This document shows, piece after piece, positions 39,595 to 52,124 of a stretch of 64,000 nt of DNA (position 1 is its first letter; each line of letters starts with the position of its first letter). Position numbers and translations under genes: made by a program. Under the pieces are notes generated by a model. It did no database searches, had not been told where the DNA came from, and was given only the letters and a program-made list of their open reading frames with translations. Source of the DNA: a virus; the IMG/VR virus record IMGVR_UViG_3300029305_004519, positions 13,541-77,540 of that record. One strand, 5' to 3'.

Positions 39595-40009
39595 CGTTGT
39601 CCATCTCCTTTGTTAACTCAATATAAGTGCCTTTAACCCCTTGGTTTTTAACTTGCGCAATACCAAATTTTTCCATTTTCGCCAACAATGAAGTCCAAAC
39701 AGGGCGCGATAGGTTTGTTTTTTGAATCATTTTTACAATTGAAAGATTACCAGATAGCCCAATTGTTTCTCTAATTGCTATAAAAGCATTTTTTTCATTA
39801 ACAGTTAATGATTTGTAAAAATCTTCTACTAAAACAAGCTGATCGGCGCCAATCACTGCTTCTAAAAAATTCATAAGGCGCCCAATATCACCATCTAATC
39901 TAAACTCACGAATATCTTCCTCGTAGTCATGAGCTATTGAGAGTAATTTTTCGTAACTAATCATTTCTTTACACATCCTTTTATTTATTCTATTAAAATT
40001 ATAAGACAT
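39578..40009 (-). CDS. Hypothetical protein
   Basis: 143-aa ORF. Confidence 0.35.
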   Translation of the reverse strand: MSYNFNRINKRMCKEMISYEKLLSIAHDYEEDIREFRLDGDIGRLMNFLEAVIGADQLVLVEDFYKSLTVNEKNAFIAIRETIGLSGNLSIVKMIQKTNLSRPVWTSLLAKMEKFGIAQVKNQGVKGTYIELTKEMDNDDLPT

Positions 40010-40121
40010 ATTTTTGAAAATTTCAATTAAAAATATCTAAAACCAACTTTGATTTTCAAAATACGAGCCTTTGCGCCCCGCGCAGACCAAAAAGAAAAAG
40101 CCACTCAAAAGAGTGACTAAA

Positions 40122-40197
40122 TGGAGGCGACACTCCGATTCGAACGGAGACCTCGTAGCTTTGCAGGCTCGCACCTTTGCCGTTTGGCTATGTCGCC
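40122..40197 (-). tRNA. tRNA-Cys(GCA)-like
   Basis: Acceptor GGCGACA/TGTCGCC, U73, CCA encoded, T-arm CTCCG-TTCGAAT-CGGAG, anticodon loop CUGCAAA. The anticodon stem is weak (3 bp). Confidence 0.5.
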
Positions 40198-40283
40198 ATA
40201 TCCAATTACCTCGCGCCACCGAACGGCGCGAGGTAAAAGCAGAAAGGAAGGTAGGAAAAATGTTGCCCAAAATTAAAAGGGGC

Positions 40284-40358
40284 TGGAGCAAGTAGCGAGA
40301 ATCGAACTCGCACCAAATGCTTGGAAGGCACTTATACTAGCCGTTATACGATACCTGC
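40284..40358 (-). tRNA. tRNA-Gly(UCC)
   Basis: Acceptor GCAGGTA/TACTTGC, U73, anticodon stem AGTGC/GCATT, loop CUUCCAA. Confidence 0.65.
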
Positions 40359-40443
40359 ATGGAGCTGAAGGTCCGATTCGAACGGACGCGGACTCTCGTC
40401 TCTCGCTTACAAGGCGAGTGCAATCGGCCACTATGCGACTTCA
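40359..40443 (-). tRNA. Class II tRNA (long variable arm). The canonical fold gives anticodon UGU, which is atypical.
   Basis: Acceptor GCTGAAG/CTTCAGC, U73, D-arm GCA/TGC with an 11-nt loop, anticodon stem CTCGC/GCGAG with loop CUUGUAA, a 14-nt variable arm, T-arm GTCCG-TTCGAAT-CGGAC. Directly abuts tRNA-Gly. Confidence 0.45.
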
Positions 40444-41228
40444 GCATATTAAGTTTTCAATAATCGCATAAGAAAATATATAATCACTTTAACGAGCCTT
40501 CACTCTACATCGTTTCTGAAGTGCGTTATTAACATATGTTCACGGGAGGCTGAGCAATGGGTAGCGATCCCACGCTTCTCCAATGGTTCTCTCTATCTTG
40601 CCCCGATAGGAAAGCAAGTAAATTAAACTACCACACCCTCGATCAATACTAAGGGAACTTTCACCGAGCTTCAGCATTAATTCTAAAATACCTGTTTTCA
40701 TCAAATTTGAAGCTATCTTTTATGCCCGATACGGCTACTCGCACCAGCCAAATCTGTTATAGTTTGTTACCAAACATCAACGGGAACGCTTATTTTTGAG
40801 ATACCTAGTTGATTATTCGCTTCATAACGGTTTCTCACGCCGCCAACTTTAGGTGGTATGCATCACTGCAGGGACTCTTCTCGCGCCAGATTCCTGACTG
40901 TTGTTTACGCTAAATCATCAATATGCACCATTATCCGCAACCTTTGTCAGGCATACTCGTTTATTCAGTATATTCACGAGTTTTATTTACTTTAGAGCAG
41001 TATCCCACTCTGTTTCTTTCCCCGCGGATCTGTCCTAGCCATCATGCAAGATGTCTGCACTAGGATGTTAAAGGTTTATATATTTTCTTATGCAATTATC
41101 AATGAACTTTTTTCTTTTGATTACTTAATCATTATATCATAAATTTTTTAAGTTTTCAAGAGAGAGGTGAGGCTTTAGGTCAGCCGACCGCACATCTGTT
41201 GATTGCTGGAACTTTTGCTCTTCCAAAA

Positions 41229-41305
41229 TGGTGCTTCAAATAGGATTCGAACCTATACTACCGAAGGTTTGAGCTTCGCGCCTCTGCCAATTGGGCTATT
41301 AAAGC
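41229..41305 (-). tRNA. tRNA-Leu(CAA)-like with a short (5-nt) variable arm
   Basis: Acceptor GCTTTAA/TTGAAGC, A73, Leu-type D-arm GCC-CAATTGGCAGA-GGC, anticodon stem CGAAG/CTTCG with loop CUCAAAC, variable GTAGT. Confidence 0.5.
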
Positions 41306-41861
41306 ATACTAAATAAATACTACTACCTATTTTCATTATACTTTCTGGCTTAGAACTCTTTGCTCTACCAGAACCACTCCTCTTCCCTTCGCGACCAGCT
41401 TTAAGTATGCATGAAATAAAGGCTGGCAGGTACTAGGCATTATCAATGCCGTTCGCTTGCTTTTTACACGGATTAACGCCTCAAACTAATCATAGGCTTT
41501 CGTATTTATTTGTACCGAATATGCTTGTGTTTGGAAAAGAGAAGCTCTCTTTTCTCGCTTGGATCGTTACTCACTACAGATATTGTGTAACACTTAGCAT
41601 ACCGTATCGTTAATCTTTCCAAGTTCATTCAATATATGGCTAGCGCTGTATCGCTTTTTGATTTATCGCATCGTGGGCCTCGCCGCGTCATCTTTTAACA
41701 GCGATGAATCTGTCGAATTTGATACGCGGATTTCGCCCGCGCCATTGACTTTATTGAAGGGTATTCGCGGTAATGGATCGCGTTTCTTGCTTTAACGCAT
41801 CAAGACTGCGGAGGTTATCTTTTCAACCGCCCTATCCCAGTTGAGTAATGAGATCAAGATA

Positions 41862-41944
41862 ACAGATCTATTGGTGTTGATTCTGGGACTCGAACCCAGA
41901 CCCTTTCGGACTAGTTCCTAAGACTAGCGCGGCTGCCAGTTACG
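41862..41944 (-). tRNA. tRNA-Leu(UAG)
   Basis: Acceptor GTTGGTT/AATCAAC, A73, anticodon stem CTAGT/ACTAG with loop CUUAGGA, long variable arm, T-arm CTGGG-TTCGAGT-CCCAG. Confidence 0.65.
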
Positions 41945-42038
41945 CCAAACCAACATTCCAGAGGCTATTGTTTTAGCGGTAATAGCCTAAACCCGCACAA
42001 AGAAGGGAGGAAAAATTGTGAAAATCAAAACGGTTCAT

Positions 42039-42114
42039 GGTGGAGAATATCGGCTATGATCCGATCACCTTCCGCTTGCAGGGCGGATGCTCTTCCAAAT
42101 GAGCTAATTCCCCA
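42039..42114 (-). tRNA. tRNA-Ala(UGC)
   Basis: Acceptor GGGGAAT/ATTCTCC with a G3·U70 pair, A73, anticodon stem TCCGC/GCGGA with loop CCUGCAA. The T-loop is atypical. Confidence 0.55.
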
Positions 42115-42248
42115 TTTTGCACTTTACTTTGCCTCTTTATATCCCGTTTGTCACAAGCCACATACTATGAAGTGGTAGTTTAAGTGCGAAATCCATGCTA
42201 ACGGATAAGAGTGCGGCTATATAGTCTAACTTAATAGACACCGACTCA

Positions 42249-42325
42249 TGGCTGGGGAGGTGGGGCACGATCCCACGACCTACGGTTTAACAGACCGTCG
42301 CTACTACCAACTGAGCTACACCCCA
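42249..42325 (-). tRNA. tRNA-Asn(GUU)
   Basis: Anticodon stem ACGGT/ACCGT with loop CUGUUAA, G73, D-arm GCTC-AGTTGGTAG-TAGC. One acceptor mismatch and an atypical T-loop. Confidence 0.55.
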
Positions 42326-42330
42326 ATCAA

Positions 42331-42408
42331 TGGCTGGGCAGGTTGGACTCGAACCAACGAAATGCAGGAGTCAAAGTCCTGTGCCGTAACCAACTTGGCT
42401 ACTGCCCA
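42331..42408 (-). tRNA. tRNA-Gln(UUG)
   Basis: Acceptor TGGGCAG/CTGCCCA (U1-A72), G73, anticodon stem CAGGA/TCCTG with loop CUUUGAC, T-arm GTTGG-TTCGAGT-CCAAC. Confidence 0.7.
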
Positions 42409-42498
42409 ATATATGATTAGCGACCTCTTTCGAGCAATTTTGAATCGAGAATTTGTTGATGGAAGCGGTCAAATAAGCCGCTTATATTGCATCGCCTT

Positions 42499-42545
42499 TA
42501 TCTTACATATATATTATATCATAAATTTTTTATTTTTTCAACGAA
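42499..42545 (-). promoter_or_regulatory. Conserved phage promoter (middle/late class) driving the tRNA sub-cluster
   Basis: Plus-strand atatatattatatcataaattttttattttttcaa. Confidence 0.55.
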
Positions 42546-42571: not shown

Positions 42572-42658
42572 TGGTGAGCGTGGCGGGAATCGAACCCGCG
42601 ATGGACATAATGTCGAGGGATTAAAAGTCCCTTGTACTCGCCGCTGTACTACACGCTC
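42572..42658 (-). tRNA. Class II tRNA (long variable arm). The canonical fold gives anticodon UUU, which is atypical.
   Basis: Acceptor GAGCGTG/CACGCTC, A73, D-arm GTAC-AGCGGCGA-GTAC, anticodon stem AGGGA/TCCCT with loop CUUUUAA, a 16-nt variable arm, T-arm GCGGG-TTCGATT-CCCGC. Confidence 0.45.
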
Positions 42659-42868: not shown

Positions 42869-43002
42869 TCTTAAAGCTGCCTTTCATCTAATGGTGGTTA
42901 GATGATAAGGACTGCTCGCACAGCGTTTATTATTGGCTACGCTTAAACCCATACTTAGGCTTGCGCCGCAGACAGTTTTGATTTAGCTACTGACAAACTT
43001 AT

Positions 43003-43078
43003 GGTGCGGCTTGTAGGACTCGAACCTACGGTCTTCTGGATGTAAGCCAGATGCTTTAACCAACTAAGCTAAACCCGC
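43003..43078 (-). tRNA. tRNA-Val(UAC)
   Basis: Anticodon stem TCTGG/CCAGA with loop CUUACAU, A73, T-arm GTAGG-TTCGAGT-CCTAC. One acceptor mismatch. Confidence 0.6.
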
Positions 43079-43193
43079 AAGAAAGAGAGGGGAGAATTTT
43101 TATACCCAGCAAGAGATAACTCTCCAAACTCAGAGTTTTACGAGGCGCCCGTCGATACTCGCTGGCAGCATCAAGGCGCAGATTAAATCATAT

Positions 43194-43270
43194 TGGTCTG
43201 AATGAAGGGACTCGAACCCCCAGCCTCTAGATCCCAAATCTAGAGCTCTGCCAAATTGAGCTACATCCAG
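43194..43270 (-). tRNA. tRNA-Pro(UGG)
   Basis: Acceptor CTGGATG/CATTCAG (C1-G72), A73, anticodon stem CTAGA/TCTAG with loop UUUGGGA. Confidence 0.65.
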
Positions 43271-43980
43271 ATGTGGTTCCATAAGGTCGGAAACCTCGCC
43301 GCACATTTTTCACCTACTAGCAGGGTCGCCATTTGCTCAATGCGATTATAAGAGCTTTTAAGCGCTTTCACGCGGAGGCTCTTACTTTATATTCCAGCTT
43401 TTGGATGCGGGAAGCTGGACCCGCGCCATTCATAGGGTTCGCGGATAAACCATCACCTACTACTAAGCCACATCATAACTTGCCCACTTCATCTTGGAGG
43501 AGCGACTCCAGCGGATATTTGGCCCACCGCTGCCTGTGTCTTGAGACTCAACACTATTACCTGTGTTTTTATATAGCGTTTTCAGCTTCGCTTTCTACTC
43601 GCTCTGTTGATAGGGGGAGGATCGAAGGGACTCCTCCCAGAGGTCATTATAGAAAAGAACCGTAGCGGAAATCTATTGGCGGTTCAATTTGTCTGCTTTA
43701 TCCGCAATTGAGAGGGAAACGGACTAAATGCTCTCGCAGGGGTTAAGGTACCCTGTTTTTGTAAGACATTACTCGAGTTATTCTTACCACAACTTCCGAC
43801 TTTACCTAATAGGCTGGTTTTCGCATTATCCATTTACCACAGTTTTCCTCCATTCATACTTGACTTCCGGCTTCGTGGCACCTATTATCTTTCCCGTTGC
43901 TCACGGATACGGGACCCCGGACGCTCTGCGTATTACCGCACAGGTTAGTCTCCTGACCAATGATTAGGCATTGGCACCTC

Positions 43981-44146
43981 TGGTGGAATGGGTAGGAGTT
44001 GAACCTACTTTGTCGCGACACACCGTGGCTTTACCGATTGCTTACCACCCCATAAATTGTGAGCGTTTATGCTTGGTAGCTCACTCCACTTCTGACCACT
44101 GGTCTTACACTCCCAGAGCGTGAAGATTTCAATACGGTTCTTCAAC
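43981..44146 (-). ncRNA. tRNA-like 3' domain (T-arm, G3·U70 acceptor, ACCA) without D and anticodon arms. Could be a tmRNA-like or other structured RNA.
   Basis: Minus strand ends ...GTAGG-TTCAACT-CCTAC-CCATTCC-A-CCA. Candidate 5' partner strands GGGGTGG (about 40 nt upstream) or GGAATGG (about 160 nt upstream). The interior has a perfect palindrome, GTGTCGCGACAC, not an anticodon arm. Confidence 0.3.
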
Positions 44147-44287
44147 CATTCCGCAGTATGCCGTTGGCTAACGATGACATACGATTCGTATCAGACTGTA
44201 GTACTCCAGCTTTTCACCTACGGCGTCTGATAATCGCCTTTTGTTAGTTTAGGGTTAATGCCGCGACGAACTAACAAAACTCGGCAT

Positions 44288-44363
44288 TGGCGACTCTGAG
44301 GCATTCCGACAGCCCGACCTTCGCAGTGACAGTGCGATGCTCTACCCCCTGAGCTACAGAGCC
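44288..44363 (-). tRNA. tRNA-Asp(GUC)
   Basis: Acceptor GGCTCTG/CAGAGTC, G73, D-arm GCTC-AGGGGGTA-GAGC, anticodon stem TCGCA/TGCGA with loop CUGUCAC. T-arm is irregular. Confidence 0.5.
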
Positions 44364-44524
44364 AAATATTAAAATAAAAGACTGGCTCAGTATGGATATT
44401 TCACCATAAGAAAAGTTTCCTGATTTAAGACTGACTAACTTGATGCCTGTTGATACGCGTTTATCTGAACAGGTCTTATTCGTTAAAATCCAGTCACCAA
44501 ATGTTGCTTTTTTTCTTTCTTTAT

Positions 44525-44809: not shown

Positions 44810-44886
44810 TGGGGAGAAAGGTGGGGCTCGAACCCACAACATCTGGACTCACATTCCAGTGCTCTGCCAATTGCGCTACTAACTCC
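44810..44886 (-). tRNA. tRNA-His(GUG)
   Basis: Anticodon stem CTGGA/TCCAG with loop AUGUGAG, C73 with an extra 5' G(-1), T-arm GTGGG-TTCGAGC-CCCAC. The acceptor has two U·U mismatches. Confidence 0.5.
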
Positions 44887-44970: not shown

Positions 44971-45047
44971 TGGTGGGAAGAATTGGAGTCGAACCAACAC
45001 ACTCTGGTTTTTCAGACCAGCGCTTAGACCGCTTAAGCTATCTTCCC
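44971..45047 (-). tRNA. tRNA-Phe(GAA)
   Basis: Acceptor GGGAAGA/TCTTCCC, A73, anticodon stem CTGGT/ACCAG with loop CUGAAAA. Confidence 0.7.
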
Positions 45048-45303
45048 ATATTCGAAGTGGGGAACTGGATTTTGATCGAGAGATATCCCCTTCGCATCTT
45101 GTACTGTTTGTGGTTGATTGACACATAGTACATTCCTGTAAACTCTATCCGACTTACACGGAGCCTTCTTTATCGCGTTTCGAACCACTTAGAAAGGCAT
45201 ATTTCTCAACACGCGTGGAATCTTCTGCATCCCCTTACCATGGGTGTACCTCCTCTTATTTTAAGACGGGTAGGGAGGCCGCGTCATACAAGAGCCTTTC
45301 GGC

Positions 45304-45379
45304 TGGAGCGATATACGAGACTTGAACTCGTTGCCTTCTGCATGGCAAGCAGACGCTCTACCAAATGAGCTAATACCGC
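45304..45379 (-). tRNA. tRNA-Gly(GCC)
   Basis: Acceptor GCGGTAT/ATATCGC, U73, D-arm GCTC-ATTTGGTA-GAGC, anticodon stem TCTGC/GCAGA with loop UUGCCAU. Confidence 0.7.
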
Positions 45380-45755
45380 ATTAAGGGAGAAGGTCCCGAT
45401 CTCCCACGGGGAATGAATTTCACATTATCACTCACAACGCCAATAGTCAATAACTGGCTTTCTATTGACAAAGCCCTCATTTGCGCCGTGCACTGCGCTT
45501 CGTCTTTAGCACTGGACACAAGCCTACAGTTCCTAAAGGTTATCAAATATACACACGGTAATGAGTTACCGTTTGCTACTTTTTTAGAGCATTTTCGCGC
45601 TCATGGCTTATCGATGGTAGCTAACCAATATCACGGCAAGGTCATGACTCCTTGCGACAAATTTCAAAGCTCGCGATGAGTGTTTTAGCCTCATATCAAA
45701 CTACGCTCTTAGGCGGAGGGCATCGAACCCCCTTCTCTCTTAACTTTGAAATTTT

Positions 45756-45830
45756 GGTGTGGACTCTAGGGATCGAACCTAGGACAACGCGATTATCAGT
45801 CGCGTCCTCTTCCAACTGAGGTAAGCCCAC
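45756..45830 (-). tRNA. tRNA-Ile(GAU)
   Basis: Anticodon stem CGCGA/TCGCG with loop CUGAUAA, A73, T-arm CTAGG-TTCGATC-CCTAG. Confidence 0.65.
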
Positions 45831-45961
45831 ATATTAAAAATGGAAACTTCAAGTGGGTCGGCGTATCCTCTATCCAACTTTTCCGCGCTGTCGACTCGGC
45901 GCTTCACCGTGCTACTTTTTATCCGCGTCCAGACCTGCTCCTTACAGGTGTTTCCTATGTA

Positions 45962-46056
45962 TGGCGGAGGAGGTAGGATTCGAACCCACGGGTCAGATCA
46001 AAGCTGACACAACAGATTTCAAGTCTGTGCGCTTATGTCCTCTTGCGCACTCCTCC
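45962..46056 (-). tRNA. tRNA-Ser(UGA)
   Basis: Acceptor GGAGGAG/CTCCTCC, G73, anticodon stem ACAGA/TCTGT with loop CUUGAAA, long variable arm. 95 nt. Confidence 0.7.
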
Positions 46057-46455
46057 ATAATGCACAGATTCTCGTACTGTGCGCAGTCCCATATGGCGCC
46101 TTGAAAAGACTGCACGAGGAATGTTTATACAGGCACATTCACTCAAACCTAACCTAGACTTCTCAATAAGGTCACACTGTGTGCTTTCTCTACTACGGCG
46201 GTTCGCACGCTTTAATGTCTCGCACAAAAGACAGCTGGCAGAGAGCGCAGGTCCCGACCCTGAGCGGATAACCGCCACATCCCTTAGCAGGGGAGTGCCG
46301 CGCCTTGCGACTTCACTCTCTATAATGTGTGTTCCACTTGCGTTTTCTCTTCTTCATCGGTTTACACACAACCTACCACTTGAAGCGCCACTAATTTATA
46401 TACCGAGTCTGGCTTTCGTCGGTGAATTACACTAATTGTGTTACTTTGCGCTGGT

Positions 46456-46613
46456 GCTACCCCCGGGACTCGAACCCGGACGCCTCTAACGAGACACTGG
46501 ATTTTTGGTGCCTGAAATGAGATTTGAACTCATAATCTGAAGCTAGGTCGCCCCAGAGTTTTCCGTTTGAGCTTATTCAAGCAAGTCCAGGGCGTCTGCC
46601 ATTCCGCCACGGT
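46456..46613 (-). ncRNA. Composite tRNA-like element: a class II tRNA interrupted in its anticodon loop by an ~85-nt insert that itself ends in a tRNA-like T-arm, acceptor and CCA
   Basis: 5' half GCTACCG..CTGGA-CUUGC..., then ...GAGTTCAAATCTCATTTCAGGCACCA, then AAAATCCAG plus variable arm GTCTC-GTTA-GAGGC, then CCGGG-TTCGAGT-CCCGG-GGGTAGC-A-CCA. Confidence 0.35.
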
Positions 46614-46626
46614 AGCATAATGCGTC

Positions 46627-47080: not shown

Positions 47081-47167
47081 TGGTGGGAAGGGTGGGAATT
47101 GAACCCACTGAGACCGAAGCCAACGGTGTTACAGACCGCCCCAACTCTCCTACTTTGGCGCCCGCCC
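47081..47167 (-). tRNA. tRNA-Tyr(GUA)
   Basis: Acceptor GGGCGGG/CCTTCCC (one mismatch, one GU), A73, anticodon stem GCGGT/ACCGT with loop CUGUAAC, long variable arm, T-arm GTGGG-TTCAATT-CCCAC. Confidence 0.55.
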
Positions 47168-47253: not shown

Positions 47254-47342
47254 TGGAGCGAAAGGCGAGATTCGAACTCGCGATAGTGGAGTATTAAAAC
47301 CCGTCCCTATAACGGGCGCCTTTACCTCTAGGCTACTTTCGC
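47254..47342 (-). tRNA. Class II tRNA with an ambiguous anticodon loop (UAUAGGG; possibly UAG)
   Basis: Acceptor GCGAAAG/CTTTCGC, U73, T-arm GCGAG-TTCGAAT-CTCGC, anticodon stem CCCGT/ACGGG, long variable region. Confidence 0.4.
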
Positions 47343-47345
47343 ATA

Positions 47346-47417
47346 TGGTGCCAGAATCTGGAGTCAAACCAAACACTCAAGGTGTATGAAACCTCAATGC
47401 GCATCGGCGCTTCTGGC
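47346..47417 (-). tRNA. tRNA-Met(CAU) (elongator type or Ile2-type)
   Basis: Acceptor GCCAGAA/TTCTGGC (G1-C72), A73, anticodon stem GAGGT/ACCTT with loop UUCAUAC. Short D-arm. Confidence 0.5.
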
Positions 47418-47849
47418 ATAAAGAGGAAGTAAGAGAGACCAATCTCTTGTTTGTTTTGGTACAACATATCCTCATTCAAAACCTGCAGTCTGGTTCACTG
47501 CACGAACACTGGCTTCTTTAACGGCTACCAGCCCGACGACATGAGGGATGGGGCATCATGTATACCCATAGTATTTTTGGTCTGACCTCAACTACTCTTG
47601 GTCTGGATGCGGATCCGCAGACTCGAACTGGGCAACCTGAGCTTATGAGGCTCTGGCGGGCACCTTGCCCATCCGCAATGTAAGTGAGAGTTTCCAGCAC
47701 CCTCGTAGCTTTATCCCAACTTCCCTTTAAGCACAGCCAAGTTGGCACTGTGCGCCTTATCATTTTATACGAGTGTAAGGTAACACATACGGGCGCCTTT
47801 CCGCGGATCCCAAGCGGCGCATCTAATTCACAAAGGCTTGGCATTACAT

Positions 47850-47927
47850 TGGTGACGCTAGGGGGATTTGAACCCACCGAATACCACCGTGAAAGGGTGG
47901 TGACTTAGACCGCTTGTCAATAGCGCC
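47850..47927 (-). tRNA. tRNA-Glu(UUC)
   Basis: Anticodon stem CCACC/GGTGG with loop CUUUCAC, A73, T-loop TTCAAAT. Confidence 0.55.
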
Positions 47928-48195
47928 GTCGACCCTGAGGATTCTCTACAAGCCCCTCAGGTAGCTCTCGTGTTTTTCGTACTGTTCCGAGCAACGCTCT
48001 TTTATCATGCTTCCTCGCAACCGCTAAGAGTAAACGCGCTGCGCCATTCATCATCAAATAATCTCCGCGCCTCACTCCATTGGGCGCGCAGCTGTAAACG
48101 GTCACTCCACCAACCGTTAATTTTAGAGTGGGTTTTTTCTATTAATTCGCGTCATACCCACTAACGCTTATAGAGAGGGACTTAACGGACTCGAA

Positions 48196-48268
48196 CCGTT
48201 GCCATCATATTTAAAAATTATGAGCTCTACCATCTGAGCTAAGGTCCCAGAATCGGAGTATTATAATC
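48196..48268 (-). tRNA. tRNA-Lys(UUU), no encoded CCA
   Basis: Acceptor GGGACCT/AAGTCCC, D-arm GCTC-AGATGGTA-GAGC, anticodon stem CATAA/ATATG with loop UUUUUAA, T-arm AACGG-TTCGAGT-CCGTT. Confidence 0.6.
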
Positions 48269-48578
48269 GCCCTCCGAGGCGCGTTGATCAACTGCCAATT
48301 CCGCTCGTTACACCGCTGAGTCTCTGGCATCTCTCACCGCGTTCAATCTGTTTGGTTTTTTAACTCTCTACGAACAGAGACTCTGAGTGATTGAAACCTC
48401 TTTTGTCTGAAACGGAAAGTTTCTCCAAACTTACAAGGATAAGTTTCAATATCGGCTAAAACTTATAAAGAACGCCCTTCACTAGGGTAGTACAGCCTTG
48501 GGCTCATGAACCCTTAGCCGCATTCCAAGTAGTTGGTGCCCCGGCTGGCAACCTATGGGGACTACGGCTCCCATAATT

Positions 48579-48818: not shown

Positions 48819-48879
48819 TTTTCTTTCTCCTCTCTTTATCTTACAAATATATTATATCATATTTTTTTATAAAAATCAA

Positions 48880-49251
48880 TCAACGATCAACAGTCATGAT
48901 TACGCGCCACACAGGAATTAAATCCGCTGAAACCTTACATAGGTCATGCGCATAATTCATAAGCTTTCGATTAAGGTCTACATCCGATTGAACAGAAAGT
49001 AAATCAAGAGGATCAAACACGACTGCCATATTATCATCAGAAACAGAAGGTGACCAATAGCCAAAATACCACGGTCCCTCAAGGGCGCCATAAGTATCGG
49101 TTGGACGCAGCTCAAATTCATCTATTCCATTCATTAAAAGATCTCGATCTTTATCAGTTAAGGGGCCAGCTTGCACCTCAAACCCATAACAAAGACTCGA
49201 CTTATGCTCTACGCTCATTTTACTTATCGCTCCTTTATACAAAATCTTCAA
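48880..49251 (-). CDS. Hypothetical protein
   Basis: 123-aa ORF. Confidence 0.4.
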   Translation of the reverse strand: MKILYKGAISKMSVEHKSSLCYGFEVQAGPLTDKDRDLLMNGIDEFELRPTDTYGALEGPWYFGYWSPSVSDDNMAVVFDPLDLLSVQSDVDLNRKLMNYAHDLCKVSADLIPVWRVIMTVDR

Positions 49252-49452
49252 AAGTTCCTACAAAGATAAAACGACTTCTGAGGAACTGCAATTCGCTTGC
49301 TTGACGAATTACAGTGATATGTTTTACATTATCATCGTCGATATACCAAACAGCTTTAATTACAGTTTTCATAAGTGTCTCTCCTTTGCTTTTTCAATTT
49401 TCTTTTGTAATTTATTATAACATAAATTTTTTAAGAAATCAATTTACGAATA

Positions 49453-49671
49453 TTAAATCACAATAAAATCTTCGATGTTTCGATAAATATCTTCATCAGA
49501 TTCGCACCAAAGCTCTTCAAACTCCATCGCGTACAGAGCGCCGAGCAATGACTTTGCGCTAACTTTAAGCCCTGCATTATCGGTGATATATACATTACCA
49601 TGCATACGCGTTGCGATATTTACGAAATCTTGCACATTATGCATAGTGTCTAAACGAATTTGTACTTTCAT
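49453..49671 (-). CDS. HPr-like phosphocarrier-family small protein
   Basis: MKVQIRLDTMHNVQDFVNIA...GLKVSAKSLLGALYAMEF resembles the HPr His15 region (GLHTRPA) and Ser46 region (SASAKSLFKLQTLGL). 72 aa. Confidence 0.4.
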   Translation of the reverse strand: MKVQIRLDTMHNVQDFVNIATRMHGNVYITDNAGLKVSAKSLLGALYAMEFEELWCESDEDIYRNIEDFIVI

Positions 49672-49785
49672 ACTTTTGCCTCTCTTTCATTTTATACTTT
49701 ATTTTATCATATTTTTTTATAAAAATCAATGAGGCGCACAAGCTTCACTATAAGTTTTCTTATGGTGCAGATTGAAGTATTTGGC

Positions 49786-49854
49786 AGGGGACCAAGGAAT
49801 CGGACCAAGGTCTTCGCTTTTGGAGAGCGTTATTCTACCATTGAACTAGTCCCC
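49786..49854 (-). tRNA. tRNA-Trp(CCA)-like with an aberrant T-arm
   Basis: Acceptor GGGGACT/GGTCCCC, D-arm GTTC-AATGGTA-GAAT, anticodon stem CGCT/AGCG with loop CUCCAAA. The T-arm region holds a direct repeat (CCTTGGTCC x2) rather than a stem. Confidence 0.35.
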
Positions 49855-49862
49855 TATATTTA

Positions 49863-50108
49863 TTACCAGACATCCCACCAATATTCTGATACTCTACGAT
49901 ACAATCCTTTAGAACTAAGCGCTCCTTTATAGCGACGAACAGCGCGATTGCATTTGCGCTTTACGAATTTAGCTCTTCTTGGTTGCCAATAACGAATATA
50001 TCTGCCTTTTTCATCATCATACCAGACACCGGCGCCATAGTGACGCATAGTTTTATCATAAAGACGCTTATATCTTTTCTTTGTCTCTTGGCTTCTTTTA
50101 TATCCCAT
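49863..50108 (-). CDS. Small basic protein
   Basis: 81 aa, K/R-rich. Confidence 0.4.
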   Translation of the reverse strand: MGYKRSQETKKRYKRLYDKTMRHYGAGVWYDDEKGRYIRYWQPRRAKFVKRKCNRAVRRYKGALSSKGLYRRVSEYWWDVW

Positions 50109-50181
50109 AGCGCACCTCCATTATTTTGGTATAGATTATAAAAATAGGTTTAATTACTTTATTTAACTTTGAAAAAAATTT

Positions 50182-50337
50182 TTACTTCTAATCCTCCATG
50201 GATCGACGCATTTGCGCCTTATCTCGTTTGCGATTATATTTCTTCTTACTTTCAACTACTCTTGTGCGAAGAAAAGCAGAATTTTGAATCCGCTCTTTTC
50301 TACGCTCTTTAGATTCTTTTGCTTCAAGTGGTTTCAT
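50182..50337 (-). CDS. Small basic protein whose frame runs ...MED-TAG-AAG-TAA (recoded TAG one codon before the TAA stop)
   Basis: MKPLEAKESKERRKERIQNSAFLRTRVVESKKKYNRKRDKAQMRRSMED[TAG]K, then TAA. Confidence 0.4.
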
Positions 50338-50364
50338 TTCTGCTTTTCTCCTTTTGAATAATGT

Positions 50365-50441
50365 TGGTGCGGGCGTCGGGACTTGAACCCAGCATCACGC
50401 GATTATAAGTCGCGCGCTCTGACCAATTGAGCTACACCCAC
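50365..50441 (-). tRNA. tRNA-Ile(UAU)
   Basis: Acceptor GTGGGTG/CGCCCGC (two GU pairs), A73, D-arm GCTC-AATTGGTCA-GAGC, anticodon stem CGCGA/TCGCG with loop CUUAUAA. Confidence 0.6.
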
Positions 50442-50471
50442 AATATGGCTTACGCCATACTTAATTGTGGC

Positions 50472-50547
50472 TGGCACCGCGTCTAGGATTCAAACCTAGG
50501 TCTCACTCCTTCGTAGGGAGGTACACTATTCACTATGCTAACGCGGC
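50472..50547 (-). tRNA. tRNA-Arg(ACG)
   Basis: Acceptor GCCGCGT/ACGCGGT, G73, anticodon stem CTCC/GGAG with loop CUACGAA, T-arm CTAGG-TTTGAAT-CCTAG. Confidence 0.6.
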
Positions 50548-50590
50548 ATAAAATGGTATTCCCTCAGAGACTCGAACTCTGGGTCTTCTA

Positions 50591-50630
50591 TAATTGATGA
50601 GGAAATTATTCCTCATCAATTAATTTTTGA
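50591..50630. terminator. Perfect 11-bp hairpin plus T-run, at the 3' end of gene 50606-51055
   Basis: TTGATGAGGAA-atta-TTCCTCATCAA followed by TTAATTTTTG. Confidence 0.45.
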
Positions 50631-51055
50631 TACTGTGCTTCAAAACAATAATCTTCTGCTAATCTTATTCCTATTTTTTGGTTATTTTTCGGTGGATCAA
50701 GCCTAATATTTAATTGTTGTGGAATACTCTCGTCGCTATCTTGAACAATATATAATCCGCACCAATTATTTTCTACGCAGTATAAGAAAAAAATATCAAT
50801 ATCGCGTGTAGAATAAGGCACACTTTTCCATGAACCTTTAGTATAGTTCGTAGTTTTAGTAGCAAATTCCATTTTTCCATCTTTAACTGCATTAGTAGCT
50901 TTAACTTGCACTCGATATATCTTATGATTTATTTCTACAACTAAATCATATCGTGCATTATTAGATAAAGGCTTGGAAACAATTGCTCCCTTAGATAAAA
51001 AATTCACCAAAGCTAATGCTTCTCCATAATCTCCAATTGAAACAGTATTCGACAT
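50606..51055 (-). CDS. Hypothetical protein
   Basis: 149-aa ORF. Confidence 0.4.
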   Translation of the reverse strand: MSNTVSIGDYGEALALVNFLSKGAIVSKPLSNNARYDLVVEINHKIYRVQVKATNAVKDGKMEFATKTTNYTKGSWKSVPYSTRDIDIFFLYCVENNWCGLYIVQDSDESIPQQLNIRLDPPKNNQKIGIRLAEDYCFEAQYQKLIDEE

Positions 51056-51287
51056 TTAAAAAGTCCTCCTTTAATATTTTATATTTTTCTGTTCACTATT
51101 ATATAAAAATTAAAGTAATATCTTTAAATAAAACTGACCAAATTTTTGTCAATAGGTTGTTTATTAGTCAGACGCTTTACCATCTAAGCTAAGGGAATAT
51201 ATTTACTTCCAACCGCCGAACGAGTAGCACGGTCATCTGGTCTCCTTTAATGGCAAGACGCTTACTACATTTCTCATGTTTTCCTTG

Positions 51288-51365
51288 TGGCACGGGATAC
51301 TGGACTCAAACCAGTGACCTAGCGCTTAGAAGGCGCTTGCTGCTGTTCAACTGAGCTAATCCCGC
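51288..51365 (-). tRNA. tRNA-Arg(UCU)
   Basis: Acceptor GCGGGAT/ATCCCGT, G73, D-arm GCTC-AGTTGAACA-GCAG, anticodon stem AGCGC/GCGCT with loop CUUCUAA, T-arm ACTGG-TTTGAGT-CCAGT. Confidence 0.65.
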
Positions 51366-51377
51366 ATACGAAGGGAA

Positions 51378-52124
51378 TTAGATAAAATTCCCTTCTCTAA
51401 AATAAATTGATTGCATAATAAGTTCTTCAAGTATACGATCTACTCCGGGCTTATAAGAACCCTTACCCGTATAAAAATCAAGATCATTTAAATAGTCTTC
51501 AAGAACACCTAAAAGCAACTTTACAAAAGAGGGGTCAGGTGTCTTATACCTGTGTTCGCGTACATCATCTGCCATCCAGATACAGTCTTTATAAGACTCT
51601 TTAGTATCAAGAATCTTCTCAAGAGTGCGCACAATACGCACACCATTCATAATCTTCTTTGGATCTTCTGGATTTTGTTTAATGGTATGAATAGCTTGAT
51701 GCACCATAGAATGAATGGCTTGACGAAAATCATAACGCGCTACCTTTTCTCTATCTGCAAGAGGGAATTGTTCTGCCCAAAACTCCTTATATAAAGGATT
51801 AATAATGCAATAATTAGTAAACATTATTTCAACAAAATTAATGTTCTGCTTTTTCCAATTTGCAACCATATGCATAATGCTCATACACTCACAGACTTCA
51901 AAGCCCTCTTCAGTATGAATATGAAGGTGCTTAACTTCAAAAGGCTTAATAGCAAGATTGTAAATTGAAGGAATAAGAATACATTTAGTATCTACATCAG
52001 AATCTGGAGTGTTGGTGTTATAGTTCCAGCTACCATACAGAAATACGCCAAGAACTGCTTCTTTGCCAAAATGCTCTATAGCGCGTGTATAATGTTTATT
52101 TACTCTTGCCATTACATCAGTCAT
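51378..52124 (-). CDS. Pol-beta-superfamily nucleotidyltransferase domain protein
   Basis: LYGSWNYNTNTPDSDVDT (GS...DxD). True start MTDVMARV with RBS GAGAGGGAAT. 248 aa. Confidence 0.5.
   Translation of the reverse strand: MTDVMARVNKHYTRAIEHFGKEAVLGVFLYGSWNYNTNTPDSDVDTKCILIPSIYNLAIKPFEVKHLHIHTEEGFEVCECMSIMHMVANWKKQNINFVEIMFTNYCIINPLYKEFWAEQFPLADREKVARYDFRQAIHSMVHQAIHTIKQNPEDPKKIMNGVRIVRTLEKILDTKESYKDCIWMADDVREHRYKTPDPSFVKLLLGVLEDYLNDLDFYTGKGSYKPGVDRILEELIMQSIYFREGNFI

What the first reader, a model, noticed from the sequence alone, without database searches (positions are those of the whole stretch)
40000..51400. An 11-kb tRNA island of about 28 minus-strand tRNAs, interleaved with 250-800-nt GC-rich non-coding blocks
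Hand folding recovers Cys, Gly(UCC), Gly(GCC), Leu(UAG), Leu(CAA)-like, Ala, Asn, Gln, Val, Pro, Asp, His, Phe, Ile(GAU), Ile(UAU), Ser, Tyr, Met, Glu, Lys, Trp-like, Arg(ACG) and Arg(UCU), plus several odd class II tRNAs. Most encode CCA and several abut with zero spacer. Between them, blocks at 40450-41220, 41310-41860, 43275-43980, 44060-44285, 45050-45300, 45400-45750, 46060-46450, 47420-47845, 47930-48190 and 48270-48560 have roughly 50% GC against about 35% elsewhere. They contain no credible ORF: the ORF-track entries there are antisense to or overlap tRNAs. They also contain no canonical tRNA. They could be structured RNAs (group I introns, tmRNA-like, RNase P-like, regulatory RNAs) or decayed tRNA copies.
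Basis: seen in the sequence. Interest (0 to 1): 0.6.

Follow-up and report, generated by a model that had tools for sequence, protein, structure and literature searches.

The report
Phage tRNA island packed with structured RNAs
An 11-kb stretch of a large gut-phage genome holds about 31 tRNA genes, one known giant RNA (ROOL) and about a dozen conserved folded RNAs found in no RNA database, showing that phage tRNA clusters can hold many more unexplained RNA genes than the one or two known so far.

Summary
Window 40122-51365 (minus strand) carries 31 tRNA or tRNA-like genes, and 30 of them encode CCA. The "GC-rich blocks" between them are non-coding under every genetic code tested.

- **Block 1** is a full-length ROOL RNA (Rfam RF03087, 175 bits), a known phage RNA that sits next to tRNA islands.
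- **The other blocks** match no Rfam family, even at E<=10. They are not junk.
  - They sit in the same slots between the same tRNAs in about 15 related gut-phage contigs.
  - They are better conserved than the neighbouring ORFs: 87% versus 77% DNA identity, with one 101-nt core at 89-99%.
  - They show no codon periodicity.
  - The four tested formally (J, C-core, E, F2) have 3-10 times more compensatory base-pair changes than the slid-partner controls. A coding control did not.
- **Missed tRNAs.** Some blocks also hide aberrant tRNAs that default tools miss: Ser-GCU, two CAU tRNAs, Asp, and a degenerate tRNA-like element.

Best reading: sigma-70-type promoters drive operons in which tRNAs punctuate a dozen discrete structured RNAs. 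tRNA processing releases these RNAs. What they do is unknown. They are not group I introns, tmRNA or RNase P RNA.

Noticed along the way: a tRNA-Leu(UAA) with a tRNA-shaped insert in its anticodon, a tRNA split by a homing-endonuclease gene, and a tRNA scaffold whose anticodon arm differs in almost every relative.

The parts
40474..41088 (-). ROOL RNA, full length (model positions 1-574)
   Evidence: Rfam RF03087, 175.2 bits against a gathering score of 99.1, E 1.5e-37. A promoter-like site lies at 41159-41131 just upstream. A ROOL in the same slot in relative L019 scores 194.8 bits.
41306..41871 (-). Module B: 566-nt non-coding RNA between tRNA-Leu(UAG) and tRNA-Leu(CAA). It is a divergent member of a clade-wide 'B family' of 450-680 nt.
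   Evidence: No ORF and no Rfam hit. The single-sequence MFE z-score is only -1.3. The 3' half aligns with elements in the same slot in L031, L023, L032, L001 and L019: 65 pairs, 12 compensatory, including a closing helix (A7). L014 has an 81-97% identical copy that is cut by the locus end.
43271..43980 (-). Module C, a composite: C1 43862-43980, C2 about 43640-43900, C-core 43385-43640, C3 43271-43390. It lies between a tRNA-like element and tRNA-Pro.
   Evidence: C1 is 96-97% identical in L003 and L014. C-core is 78-94% identical in 8 loci. C-core has 13 pairs with double changes, against 6.3+-1.7 in shuffles (0/500) and 0-3 in slid controls, with 93% of cells paired. The sub-parts occur in different combinations in relatives.
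44056..44287 (-). Module D, between tRNA-Asp and the tRNA-like element
   Evidence: The 31-nt core 44187-44217 is 93-97% identical in 7 loci. L031 aligns over 466 nt at 75%. The module is absent from L003 and L014. Only 3 sequences were available, so covariation evidence is weak.
45048..45303 (-). Module E, which fills the whole gap between tRNA-Gly(GCC) and tRNA-Phe
   Evidence: 78-83% identical in L014, L021, L023 and L027. 16 pairs with double changes, against 8.3+-1.9 in shuffles (0/500) and 1-4 in slid controls.
45380..45754 (-). Module F, between tRNA-Ile(GAU) and tRNA-Gly(GCC). It includes an invariant 26-mer at 45501-45476 and a terminator-like hairpin at 45572-45555.
   Evidence: Conservation is patchy, with the 26-mer 100% identical in at least 5 loci. 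18 of 40 pairs are compensatory, against 2-8 in slid controls.
45831..45961 (-). Module F2: a 131-nt multi-hairpin RNA closed by a GGAAAC/GUUUCC helix, between tRNA-Ser(UGA) and tRNA-Ile(GAU)
   Evidence: 84-90% identical in 5 loci. 98.8% of cells paired. 6 double-change pairs, against 1.9+-1.1 in shuffles (1/500) and 0-1 in slid controls.
46057..46235 (-). Module G2, between tRNA-Ser(GCU) and tRNA-Ser(UGA)
   Evidence: Full length in L014 (94%), L015 and L017. The 3' 60 nt is 86-90% identical in 6 more loci. 7 of 44 pairs are compensatory, against 0-2 in slid controls.
46322..46451 (-). Module G1 (core 46323-46423): a near-invariant 101-nt element between the split tRNA-Leu(UAA) and tRNA-Ser(GCU)
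   Evidence: 89-99% identical in 9 non-redundant loci whose ORFs are about 77% identical. Two helices. The GCCA/UGGC pairing covaries in L026.
47418..47603 (-). Module H2, between the two CAU tRNAs. It contains a terminator-like hairpin at 47502-47484.
   Evidence: Only L012 shares 76 nt at 82%. This is the weakest module.
47679..47849 (-). Module H1, between tRNA-Glu and tRNA(CAU)
   Evidence: 74-92% identical in 12 loci. 18-20 consensus pairs, 3 compensatory, against 0-1 in slid controls.
47928..48174 (-). Module I, between the variable-anticodon tRNA scaffold and tRNA-Glu. It has two hairpins with the loop NUGGAGUG(A).
   Evidence: 84-96% identical in 5 loci and partly conserved in 8 more. 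The stem of the first hairpin covaries in all 14 loci while the 10-nt loop UGRUGGAGUG stays invariant.
48249..48578 (-). Module J: a structured RNA of about 275-330 nt, between ORF 48579-48818 and the variable-anticodon tRNA scaffold
   Evidence: 78-92% identical in L015, L017, L018 and L023. 80 pairs, 14 with double changes, against 5.4+-1.6 in shuffles (0/500) and 1-4 in slid controls, with 94.5% of cells paired.
44364..44520 (-). Conserved leader between promoter 44566-44538 and tRNA-Asp
   Evidence: 74-97% identical in 9 loci. 5 of 31 pairs are compensatory, against 0-1 in slid controls.
42409..42505 (-). Conserved leader between promoter 42541-42513 and tRNA-Gln
   Evidence: 79-95% identical in 7 loci. 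5 of 13 pairs are compensatory, against 0-1 in slid controls.
43079..43193 (-). Conserved spacer between tRNA-Pro and tRNA-Val
   Evidence: 83-93% identical in L001, L014 and L015. No covariation was seen.
42114..42248 (-). Conserved spacer between tRNA-Asn and tRNA-Ala
   Evidence: 96% identical in L014 and 79% in L023. 4 of 27 pairs are compensatory.
51288..51365 (-). tRNA-Arg(UCU)
   Evidence: ARAGORN; Rfam 52.6 bits.
50554..51198 (-). tRNA split in the anticodon loop by a 569-nt insert. The insert carries a promoter, the PD-(D/E)XK_5 ORF 50606-51055 and a 13-bp terminal hairpin. The intact homologue in L003 is tRNA-Lys(CUU).
   Evidence: ARAGORN -i. Alignment of the two halves to L003 and L004 Lys(CUU). 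Pfam PF11645, 91 bits. In relatives the same gene family is free-standing next to tRNAs.
50472..50547 (-). tRNA-Arg(ACG)
50365..50441 (-). tRNA-Ile(UAU)
49782..49855 (-). tRNA-Trp(CCA)
48175..48248 (-). tRNA scaffold without encoded CCA. Here the anticodon is UUU (Lys). The anticodon arm differs in almost every relative.
   Evidence: alignment A5.
47850..47927 (-). tRNA-Glu(UUC)
47604..47678 (-). tRNA(CAU), missed by default tools
   Evidence: ARAGORN at ps90. Acceptor UGCGGAU/AUCCGCA plus UCCA, read from the sequence.
47346..47417 (-). Second tRNA(CAU), found by hand
   Evidence: T-arm scan. Acceptor GCCAGAA/UUCUGGC plus ACCA and loop UUCAUAC, read from the sequence.
47254..47342 (-). tRNA-Leu(UAG), class II
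47081..47167 (-). tRNA-Tyr(GUA)
46452..46616 (-). tRNA-Leu(UAA), class II, interrupted after U34 by a 77-nt tRNA-shaped insert (46582-46506). The insert has its own acceptor stem, T-arm and ACCA.
   Evidence: ARAGORN -i. Rfam tRNA 26.9 bits for the insert. T-arm and acceptor scan. Alignment A8: the same site is occupied in L021 by a different insert, and the tRNA is intact in 6 relatives.
46236..46321 (-). tRNA-Ser(GCU), missed by default tools
   Evidence: ARAGORN at ps90. It aligns to tRNA-Ser(GCU) of L001 and L003.
45962..46056 (-). tRNA-Ser(UGA)
45755..45830 (-). tRNA-Ile(GAU)
45304..45379 (-). tRNA-Gly(GCC)
44971..45047 (-). tRNA-Phe(GAA)
44810..44885 (-). tRNA-His(GUG)
44288..44363 (-). 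tRNA-Asp(GUC)
   Evidence: Rfam 44.9 bits.
43981..44051 (-). tRNA-like element with a degenerate anticodon arm. The homologue in L031 scores as a tRNA with anticodon UCA.
   Evidence: ARAGORN at ps80; Rfam tRNA-Sec 19.9 bits; L031 315-390.
43194..43270 (-). tRNA-Pro(UGG)
43002..43078 (-). tRNA-Val(UAC)
42572..42658 (-). tRNA-Lys(UUU) with a long extra arm (87 nt)
   Evidence: conserved in L003.
42331..42408 (-). tRNA-Gln(UUG)
42249..42325 (-). tRNA-Asn(GUU)
42038..42113 (-). tRNA-Ala(UGC)
41872..41954 (-). tRNA-Leu(UAG)
41229..41305 (-). tRNA-Leu(CAA)
40360..40445 (-). tRNA-Thr(UGU) with a long extra arm (86 nt)
40284..40358 (-). tRNA-Gly(UCC)
40122..40197 (-). tRNA-Cys(GCA)
40099..40118 (-). 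Intrinsic-terminator-like hairpin plus T-run, closing the island
48851..48879 (-). Promoter-like site (TTGATT-17-TATAAT with TG). It is one of a repeated family, with others at 49729-49701, 49442-49414, 47048-47020, 44566-44538, 42861-42833, 42541-42513 and 41159-41131.
   Evidence: The same motif recurs throughout the related loci.

Best explanation
The region is the tRNA island of a large (about 105-150 kb) Clostridia-type gut phage. The 'GC-rich blocks' are genes for discrete structured non-coding RNAs that are transcribed together with the tRNAs.

**Inferred from sequence**
- Eight or nine near-identical sigma-70-type promoters (TTGAtt-17-TAtAAT with a TG extension) divide the island into operons. 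A phage sigma factor is encoded at 28560-29480.
- Inside each operon, tRNAs alternate with structured modules, with spacers of zero to a few nucleotides.

**Mechanism (inferred)**
- Host RNase P cuts at each tRNA 5' end, and tRNA 3'-end maturation cuts at each 3' end.
- Together these cuts release every module as a separate RNA, as in tRNA-punctuated transcripts.

**What the modules are**
- One module is ROOL. ROOL is known from cryo-EM to assemble into an RNA-only nanocage and to sit next to phage tRNA islands.
- The other roughly twelve modules (B, C1/C2/C-core/C3, D, E, F, F2, G1, G2, H1, H2, I, J) and several leaders are families absent from Rfam.
- They are cassette-like. Each keeps its slot between particular tRNAs across the clade, yet it can be missing, replaced by another RNA, or replaced by a homing-endonuclease gene.

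**What they do (speculative)**
I think they most likely act in trans during infection as stable RNAs tied to the phage's investment in tRNA and RNA repair. They could be scaffolds, decoys, or processing elements for the tRNA transcripts. None of this is shown.
For: **ROOL.** 175 bits, full length.

**Non-coding.**
- No open frame under four codes.
- Variable columns are evenly spread over the three phases: 37/40/40, 48/47/47, 37/42/37 and 13/13/13. A neighbouring ORF gives 36/35/72.

**Conserved and syntenic.** The modules lie between the same tRNAs in about 15 non-redundant related contigs. Mean DNA identity is 87.0% for modules, 76.6% for island ORFs and about 85% for tRNAs.

**Structure.** Pairs with double changes, against slid controls:
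- J: 14 against 1-4
- C-core: 13 against 0-3
- E: 16 against 1-4
- F2: 6 against 0-1

90-99% of cells are paired and consensus energies are -28 to -65 kcal/mol. The coding control gives 7 against 1-6, 87.5% paired and -12 kcal/mol. The B family has 12 compensatory pairs. The stem of the module I hairpin covaries in 14 loci around an invariant loop.

**Not a known family.** No Rfam hit at E<=10. No GenBank phage carries the modules.

**Operon layout.** The best promoter matches are all on the minus strand. A terminator follows the last tRNA.

**RNA-centred gene context.**
- An RlaP-related nucleotidyltransferase lies directly upstream of the island in every relative.
- RNA ligase, P-loop kinase and metallophosphoesterase genes lie at 24561-28434.

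**Precedent.**
- ROOL and GOLLD lie near phage tRNA islands, and GOLLD can embed tRNAs (PMC5737381, PMC12286853).
- Phage K has abundant lncRNAs next to its tRNA genes (PMC9241854).
- Ribozymes flank phage tRNAs (PMC10879173). Sub-threshold HDV-like and twister hits occur in the tRNA islands of relatives.
Against: - There are no expression or end-mapping data, so transcription, processing and stability are all inferred.
- Alignments hold only 5-9 sequences from one phage clade.
- The consensus structures were predicted from the same alignments. The shuffle control is also passed by a coding control, so only the slid controls, the energies and the paired fraction discriminate.
- Evidence is weak for H2 (one partial homologue) and for D and C3 (few sequences).
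- Module B has weak single-sequence support (MFE z -1.3).
- Some 100%-identical tRNAs show recent recombination between these phages. That could inflate identity for some modules.
- 30 of 31 tRNAs encode CCA. In Firmicutes such precursors are usually trimmed by 3' exonucleases, which might degrade the downstream modules instead of releasing them.
- No function can be assigned to any module except by analogy.
Confidence: 0.72

Rival explanations
1. The blocks are mainly processing elements: undescribed self-cleaving ribozymes or structured signals that cut the polycistronic tRNA transcripts. The phage kinase, phosphoesterase, RNA ligase and nucleotidyltransferase would then heal the resulting ends. 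On this view the blocks are not trans-acting RNAs in their own right.
For: - Relatives carry ribozyme-like elements inside their tRNA islands. An HDV-like hit (37 bits, E 0.003) starts at the last base of tRNA-Gln, which lacks CCA, in L001. A twister-P1-like hit (56 bits) lies in Phass-1.
- Theta ribozymes are known to flank phage tRNAs and to co-occur with nucleotidyltransferases and RNA ligases (PMC10879173).
- The window encodes just such enzymes.
- The G1 core is 101 nt, near-invariant and possibly pseudoknotted, as ribozyme cores are.
Against: - No known ribozyme family is detected in the window's island, even at E<=10.
- 30 of 31 tRNAs encode CCA, unlike tRNAs associated with theta ribozymes.
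- Modules of 250-700 nt are far larger than any self-cleaving ribozyme.
- About twelve unrelated folds would not be needed for one task.
Confidence: 0.15
2. The blocks are spacers with no function of their own. They would be remnants of tRNAs, or sequence kept similar by recent recombination and by gene conversion driven by homing endonucleases. Their apparent structure would be a by-product of GC content and of the prediction method.
For: - The islands are full of GIY-YIG, HNH and PD-(D/E)XK homing endonuclease genes.
- Some tRNAs are 100% identical between otherwise diverged phages.
- One element (44051-43981) and two interrupted tRNAs are indeed decayed or disrupted.
- A coding control also beats the shuffle test.
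- Module B is no more stable than its shuffles.
Against: - Identity is graded (74-99%) across many loci, not all-or-none.
- Compensatory changes exceed the slid controls 3-10 fold in J, C-core, E and F2, but not in the coding control.
- The module I hairpin has 7 different stems around one invariant loop.
- The G1 core keeps 89-99% identity in all 9 loci, whatever their distance.
- The tRNA model finds nothing in the modules at E<=10.
Confidence: 0.08
3. The blocks are cis-regulatory leaders, such as attenuators or riboswitch-like elements, that control read-through into the downstream tRNAs and small ORFs.
For: - Two conserved elements sit directly between a promoter and the first tRNA: 44364-44520 and 42409-42505.
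- Terminator-like hairpins lie inside F and H2.
- G1 has two alternative partners (ACCGA, twice) for one UCGGU segment, read from the sequence.
Against: - Most modules lie between two tRNAs in mid-operon and have no terminator.
- The overall count of terminator-like sites is not clearly above chance: 17 against 10.6+-3.3, mostly on the wrong strand.
- No riboswitch family matches.
Confidence: 0.05

Closest known systems
ROOL RNA (Rfam RF03087; Weinberg et al. 2017, PMC5737381; cryo-EM nanocage, PMC12286853)
   Same: Block 40474-41088 is a member. It matches the full-length model at 175 bits, lies in a phage and sits next to tRNAs. The other blocks share ROOL's context (phage tRNA island, co-orientation with tRNAs) and, for B and C, its size class.
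   Different: Blocks B to J have no detectable sequence or structure similarity to ROOL (Rfam E<=10 finds nothing). Most are smaller, at 100-375 nt. Nothing is known about whether they oligomerise.
GOLLD RNA (phage and prophage, next to tRNA arrays; tRNAs sometimes embedded in its linker)
   Same: It is a large structured RNA in phage tRNA arrays. The alternation of conserved RNA domains with tRNAs recalls a GOLLD with an embedded tRNA.
   Different: No match to the GOLLD model. Here the modules are separable cassettes that vary independently between phages. A predicted long-range J-I helix has essentially no covariation support.
Theta / HDV-like and twister ribozymes flanking phage tRNAs (PMC10879173)
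   Same: They are structured RNAs immediately next to tRNAs in gut-phage tRNA clusters. They co-occur with phage nucleotidyltransferase and RNA ligase genes and with an amber-suppressor tRNA. Relatives of this phage have sub-threshold HDV-like and twister hits in their islands.
   Different: None of the window's modules matches a ribozyme family. Their tRNAs encode CCA. The modules are much longer than ribozymes of 50-90 nt.
Stable RNAs of the phage T4 tRNA cluster (species 1 and 2 RNAs) and the lncRNAs next to phage K tRNA genes (PMC9241854). The T4 case is from my own knowledge.
   Same: They are non-tRNA stable RNAs co-transcribed with phage tRNAs and released by tRNA processing, with unknown function.
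   Different: Those phages have one or two such RNAs. Here about a dozen families take up about 3.5 kb of an 11-kb island. No sequence relation was tested or is expected.

Membership tests
ROOL RNA (RF03087) | Covariance-model score above the curated gathering score over the full model | tested here: met
   175.2 bits against 99.1, model positions 1-574 of 574, window 40474-41088 minus strand.
ROOL RNA (RF03087) | Phage or prophage context next to tRNA genes | tested here: met
   ROOL is flanked by tRNA-Leu(CAA) and tRNA-Thr. Phage genes surround the island.
ROOL RNA (RF03087) | Assembly into a homo-oligomeric nanocage | not testable with these tools
   This needs cryo-EM or native gels.
ROOL RNA, applied to blocks B to J | Any match to the ROOL model | tested here: not met
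   No ROOL hit in 41300-44300 or 45040-48600 at E<=10.
For tmRNA, also an ARAGORN tmRNA call. | tested here: not met
   No hit at E<=1 over 39500-52000, nor at E<=10 over the blocks. The only exception is a 15-bit 'permuted tmRNA' noise hit. ARAGORN with -m finds no tmRNA.
tRNA (RF00005), applied to blocks B to J as 'decayed tRNA copies' | Cloverleaf detectable by the covariance model or by relaxed ARAGORN | tested here: inconclusive
   Met for sub-segments: Ser-GCU, two CAU tRNAs, Asp, the tRNA-like 44051-43981 and the insert 46582-46506. Not met for the remaining sequence, about 3.5 kb.
HDV-like / theta ribozymes | Nested double-pseudoknot fold starting within 5 nt of a tRNA 3' end | tested here: not met
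   No HDV-family hit in the window's island. A candidate exists only in relative L001 at 16796-16863, at 37 bits, below the gathering score of 44. My own descriptor scan was too strict even for that candidate.
Structured non-coding RNA (generic) | Conserved base pairing with compensatory substitutions and no coding signal | tested here: met
   Met for J, C-core, E and F2 with controls, and for the B family. Weaker or untested for D, H2 and C3.
Structured non-coding RNA (generic) | Transcribed and accumulating as a discrete RNA | not testable with these tools
   No transcriptome data are available.

The most novel reading that the evidence does not exclude
The island is an array of about a dozen previously undescribed functional RNA classes working alongside ROOL. 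It would include at least one new large RNA family of ROOL size (the B family of 450-680 nt, plus a structured element of about 500-670 nt between tRNA-Thr and tRNA-Gly in relatives). It would also include at least one new catalytic or ligand-binding RNA (the near-invariant G1 core). These RNAs would form, with the phage's tRNAs, RNA ligase, kinase, phosphoesterase and RlaP-type nucleotidyltransferase, an RNA-based system for taking over or protecting host translation. The system could also include protein-assisted splicing of the tRNA-Leu(UAA) that carries a tRNA-shaped 'intron'.
Probability: 0.2. Interest if true: 0.85.

Novelty: new variant of a known kind. Interest (0 to 1): 0.66.

Why it matters
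ROOL and GOLLD are among the largest bacterial and phage RNAs with no known function. Their only consistent clue is that they sit beside phage tRNA islands.

This island suggests ROOL is one member of a much larger repertoire. About a dozen other conserved, structured, exchangeable RNA cassettes share the same operons and the same tRNA punctuation, in a clade of human-gut phages.

That gives RNA biologists three things:
- a set of compact new folds for structure work;
- natural presence/absence variants, such as ROOL replaced by an endonuclease gene, for functional comparison;
- a genomic link between these RNAs and a phage RNA-repair gene set.

It also shows that default tRNA finders miss about a fifth of the tRNA genes in such islands.

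Tried and rejected
**Recoded protein genes.** Rejected. No frame opens under TAG, TGA or TAA reassignment, and there is no codon periodicity.

**Known RNA families.** Eight Rfam searches found only ROOL and tRNAs in the window.

**Wider search for relatives and modules.**
- Metagenome scan with the nucleotidyltransferase profile: 3 short contigs.
- Exact-pattern scans of IMG/VR for G1: the same 3 contigs.
- Exact-pattern scans of IMG/VR for B: none.
- GenBank phages, megablast and blastn: tRNA hits only.
- The useful route was protein homologues, then their encoding contigs.

**One giant RNA spanning J, the tRNA and I.** A joint fold predicts two long-range helices. One is almost invariant and breaks in the most distant sequence, and the other has mismatches. 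This is not supported.

**A peptide in G1 (MKKRKRKWNTHYRE).** Rejected. The ATG is ATT in all other loci.

**The 'UGGAGUGA' loop.**
- As a K-turn or C/D-type motif: the key A varies to G.
- As a binder of tRNA 3' CCA ends: this fits the window's UGGUGG variant but not the commoner UGAUGG variant.
- Both rejected, on reading the sequences.

**My own HDV descriptor.** It failed on the positive example, so it says nothing about the window.

**The split tRNA at 51198-50554 as a group I intron.** Rejected. Only about 119 nt of the insert lie outside the ORF, and there is no Rfam hit.

**Shuffle control alone as evidence of structure.** Rejected after the coding control passed it too.

Full report
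**1. What the window is**

Nearly all long ORFs are on the minus strand and are phage-like:
- gyrase A and B
- DnaB-type helicase
- RecJ
- NAD-dependent DNA ligase
- NAPRTase
- a sigma-70-family factor
- HNH and GIY-YIG endonucleases
- an Mtd_N tail-fibre-like protein

The gene directly upstream of the island (51378-52184) is a nucleotidyltransferase (PHROG 388). A 49%-identical homologue of it passes Pfam's RlaP model, 'RNA repair pathway DNA polymerase beta family'.

Relatives are contigs of about 100-153 kb from IMG/VR and from ENA and Logan gut metagenomes. One is binned in a 'Eubacteriales bacterium' MAG. The only GenBank relative is remote. It is phage Phass-1 (human gut, 'code 15 clade'), whose 30%-identical nucleotidyltransferase also sits just upstream of a tRNA island.

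**2. The observation**

ARAGORN default finds 24 minus-strand tRNAs in 40122-51365. Rfam adds Asp. Relaxed ARAGORN, a T-arm/acceptor scan and alignments to relatives add the rest:
- Ser(GCU)
- two CAU tRNAs
- a degenerate tRNA-like element
- two interrupted tRNAs

The total is 31, and 30 encode CCA. The ten blocks are 39-50% GC, against 37.5% outside the island. No block is an ORF on either strand under the standard code or with TAG, TGA or TAA reassigned.

Two details are off. The first two blocks are only 39-42% GC.

**3. What the blocks are**

*Block 1* is a full-length ROOL RNA: RF03087, 175 bits against a gathering score of 99, at 40474-41088. A strong promoter-like site lies just upstream.

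*None of the other blocks* matches any of 4227 Rfam families, even at E<=10 on short sub-regions. No GenBank phage carries them.

*They are conserved.* BLAST against about 15 non-redundant related islands finds every module except H2 in several phages. Each keeps the same slot between the same tRNAs:

| Module | Slot |
|---|---|
| J | before a particular tRNA scaffold |
| I | between that scaffold and Glu |
| H1 | between Glu and Met |
| G1 | between Leu(UAA) and Ser(GCU) |
| G2 | between the two Ser tRNAs |
| F2 | between Ser(UGA) and Ile(GAU) |
| F | between Ile and Gly |
| E | between Gly and Phe |
| D | after Asp |
| C | before Pro |
| B | after Leu(UAG) |
| ROOL | before Thr |

Mean DNA identity to relatives is 87.0% for modules, 76.6% for island ORFs and about 85% for tRNAs. 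The 101-nt G1 core is 89-99% identical in all nine phages that have it.

**4. Structure tests**

I predicted consensus folds and counted pairs with the two controls offered.

| Alignment | Double-change pairs | Shuffled | Slid controls | Cells paired |
|---|---|---|---|---|
| J | 14 | 5.4+-1.6 (0/500) | 1-4 | 94.5% |
| C-core | 13 | 6.3+-1.7 (0/500) | 0-3 | 93% |
| E | 16 | 8.3+-1.9 (0/500) | 1-4 | 90.5% |
| F2 | 6 | 1.9+-1.1 (1/500) | 0-1 | 98.8% |
| ORF81 (coding control) | 7 | 4.1+-1.1 (6/500) | 1-6 | 87.5% |

Because these structures come from the same alignments, I ran the neighbouring coding gene ORF81 through the same procedure. It also beats the shuffles, but not the slid controls, and its consensus energy is only -12 kcal/mol. 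The four modules give -28 to -65 kcal/mol. The shuffle test is therefore uninformative here. The slid controls, the energies and the paired fraction do separate the modules from coding sequence.

Variable columns show no three-base periodicity in the modules, whereas ORF81 shows 36/35/72.

A Python survey gives similar though weaker signals for F, G2, H1, I and the Asp and Gln leaders.

The first hairpin of module I is the clearest single example. It has seven different stems in 14 phages around an invariant 10-nt loop, UGRUGGAGUG.

Module B alone is no more stable than shuffles (z -1.3). However, its 3' half is homologous to a 450-680 nt element in the same slot in five other phages, with 12 compensatory pairs including the closing helix.

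**5. Cassette behaviour**

- The ROOL slot holds ROOL in the window and in L019 (195 bits).
- In L031 that slot holds a GIY-YIG endonuclease gene that keeps ROOL's first and last about 20 nt.
- L001 and L003 have no ROOL.
- Module D is absent from L003 and L014.
- The parts of module C occur in different combinations.
- Relatives carry further structured elements that the window lacks. One is an element of about 500-670 nt between Thr and Gly(UCC), with 24 of 115 pairs compensatory. Another is an extra module of about 190-300 nt after G1.
- The islands are dense in GIY-YIG, HNH and PD-(D/E)XK homing endonuclease genes.

**6. How it probably works**

The top-scoring promoter-like sites are all on the minus strand and share one motif with a TG extension: 49729, 49442, 48879, 47048, 44566, 42861, 42541 and 41159. 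A terminator-like hairpin follows the last tRNA. The total count of consensus matches is not far above chance, so this rests on the repeated motif, not on the count.

This layout gives operons such as:
- P48879 - ORF79 - J - tRNA - I - Glu - H1 - Met - H2 - Met - Leu - Tyr
- P47048 - ORF119 - Leu(UAA) - G1 - Ser - G2 - Ser - F2 - Ile - F - Gly - E - Phe - His

Modules abut tRNAs with zero to a few nucleotides, so tRNA 5' and 3' processing should free each module. This is inference.

By analogy with ROOL and GOLLD (PMC5737381, PMC12286853), with phage K's tRNA-adjacent lncRNAs (PMC9241854) and, from my own knowledge, with the T4 species 1 and 2 RNAs, I expect stable trans-acting RNAs.

The gene context is RNA repair. 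RNA ligase (27244-28434), a P-loop kinase (25124-25627), a metallophosphoesterase (24561-25127) and the RlaP-related nucleotidyltransferase are all present.

Relatives have sub-threshold HDV-like and twister hits within their islands. This echoes the published theta ribozymes that flank phage tRNAs (PMC10879173). A processing or ribozyme role for some modules, G1 above all, is therefore the main rival.

**7. Comparison and novelty**

ROOL beside phage tRNAs is already known. What is new is the number and density of further families: about twelve, taking about 3.5 kb of an 11-kb island. Also new are their conserved slots, their exchangeability, and their absence from Rfam 15.

A catalogue of 10,006 candidate viral structured RNAs built from IMG/VR exists (PMC10690425). 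I could not check whether any of these modules is listed there. I therefore rate the finding a new variant of a known kind.

**8. Limits**

- There are no expression data.
- The alignments are small and come from a single clade.
- The structures were predicted and tested on the same data.
- D, H2 and C3 are weakly supported.
- Function is unknown.

Noticed in passing
window 46452-46616 (-); insert 46506-46582; L021 about 14856-14935: tRNA-Leu(UAA) is interrupted between U34 and A35 by a 77-nt element that is itself tRNA-shaped, with its own 7-bp acceptor stem, T-arm and ACCA, and an 8-nt 'anticodon' loop. L021 has a different tRNA-shaped insert at exactly the same site. Six relatives have the intact tRNA. 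From my own knowledge, this is the position of the classical cyanobacterial and plastid tRNA-Leu(UAA) group I intron. The phage's RNA ligase could in principle rejoin the halves after RNase P and RNase Z excise the insert.
   Followed up: partly
window 48175-48248 (-); alignment A5 across 13 loci: One tRNA scaffold has nearly identical acceptor, D- and T-arms in all relatives. It has no encoded CCA and a C-A mismatch in the acceptor stem. Its anticodon arm differs in almost every phage: UUU, GAU, GCA, GUU, UGG, and several 8-nt or odd loops. It always lies between modules J and I.
   Followed up: partly
window 50554-51198 (-); ORF 50606-51055: A tRNA is split in its anticodon loop by a 569-nt cassette. 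Its intact homologue in L003 is Lys-CUU. The cassette has its own promoter, a PD-(D/E)XK_5 endonuclease gene and a 13-bp terminal hairpin. From my own knowledge, PF11645 is the family of the tRNA-intron homing endonuclease I-Ssp6803I. There is no room for a group I core. In relatives the same gene family sits free-standing right after tRNAs, once next to a tRNA 3' fragment.
   Followed up: partly
window 42572-42658 (-) and 40360-40445 (-): tRNA-Lys(UUU) (87 nt) and tRNA-Thr(UGU) (86 nt) carry long extra arms, which normally occur only in Leu, Ser and Tyr tRNAs. Both are conserved in relatives.
   Followed up: no
window 24561-28434 (-) and 51378-52184 (-): An RNA end-healing and sealing gene set: metallophosphoesterase, AAA_33 P-loop kinase and RNA ligase (PHA02142 OB-fold plus RNA_ligase). 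An RlaP-related nucleotidyltransferase is conserved directly upstream of the tRNA island in every relative, including the remote phage Phass-1.
   Followed up: partly
window 22478-22553 (-): An amber-suppressor-type tRNA(CUA), which ARAGORN calls 'Pyl', lies outside the island next to an RNase H gene. Together with the kinship to the 'code 15 clade' phage Phass-1, it hints at TAG recoding in part of the genome. I did not check whether late genes contain in-frame TAG.
   Followed up: no
window 30716-33283 (-) and 37476-39014 (-): An 855-aa protein matches the major-vault-protein shoulder domain (PF11978, 83.8 bits) and, weakly, a vault repeat. A 512-aa SPFH/Band 7 and flotillin-like protein lies nearby. 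Cage- or scaffold-forming proteins encoded 7-9 kb from an island of structured RNAs are curious, though probably they are just SPFH-family proteins.
   Followed up: no
L001 16796-16863 (+); L030 (Phass-1) 8790-8846 (+): Ribozyme hits below the gathering score inside the tRNA islands of relatives. An HDV-like element (37 bits, E 0.003) starts at the last base of a CCA-less tRNA-Gln, and by eye it fits P1, P2, P3 and P1.1. A twister-P1-like element (56 bits, E 1e-10) lies in Phass-1.
   Followed up: partly
L031 3507-4400 (+) against window 40446-41228: In a close relative the ROOL gene is replaced by a GIY-YIG homing endonuclease ORF, with about 20 nt of ROOL kept at each end. This is a natural ROOL-minus variant.
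   Followed up: partly
window 48063-48113 (-), module I: The invariant hairpin loops read NUG-GAG-UGA. The one variable loop base keeps a start codon (AUG, GUG or UUG), so the loop forms a start-Glu-stop mini-frame next to a GGAG. Whether this is meaningful or a coincidence is open.
   Followed up: no
window 12363-17103 (-): The NAD-dependent DNA ligase appears to be split into two ORFs: adenylation plus OB domains at 15970-17103, and HhH plus BRCT domains at 14186-15019. A protein with a GIY-YIG domain lies just downstream at 12363-13274.
   Followed up: no
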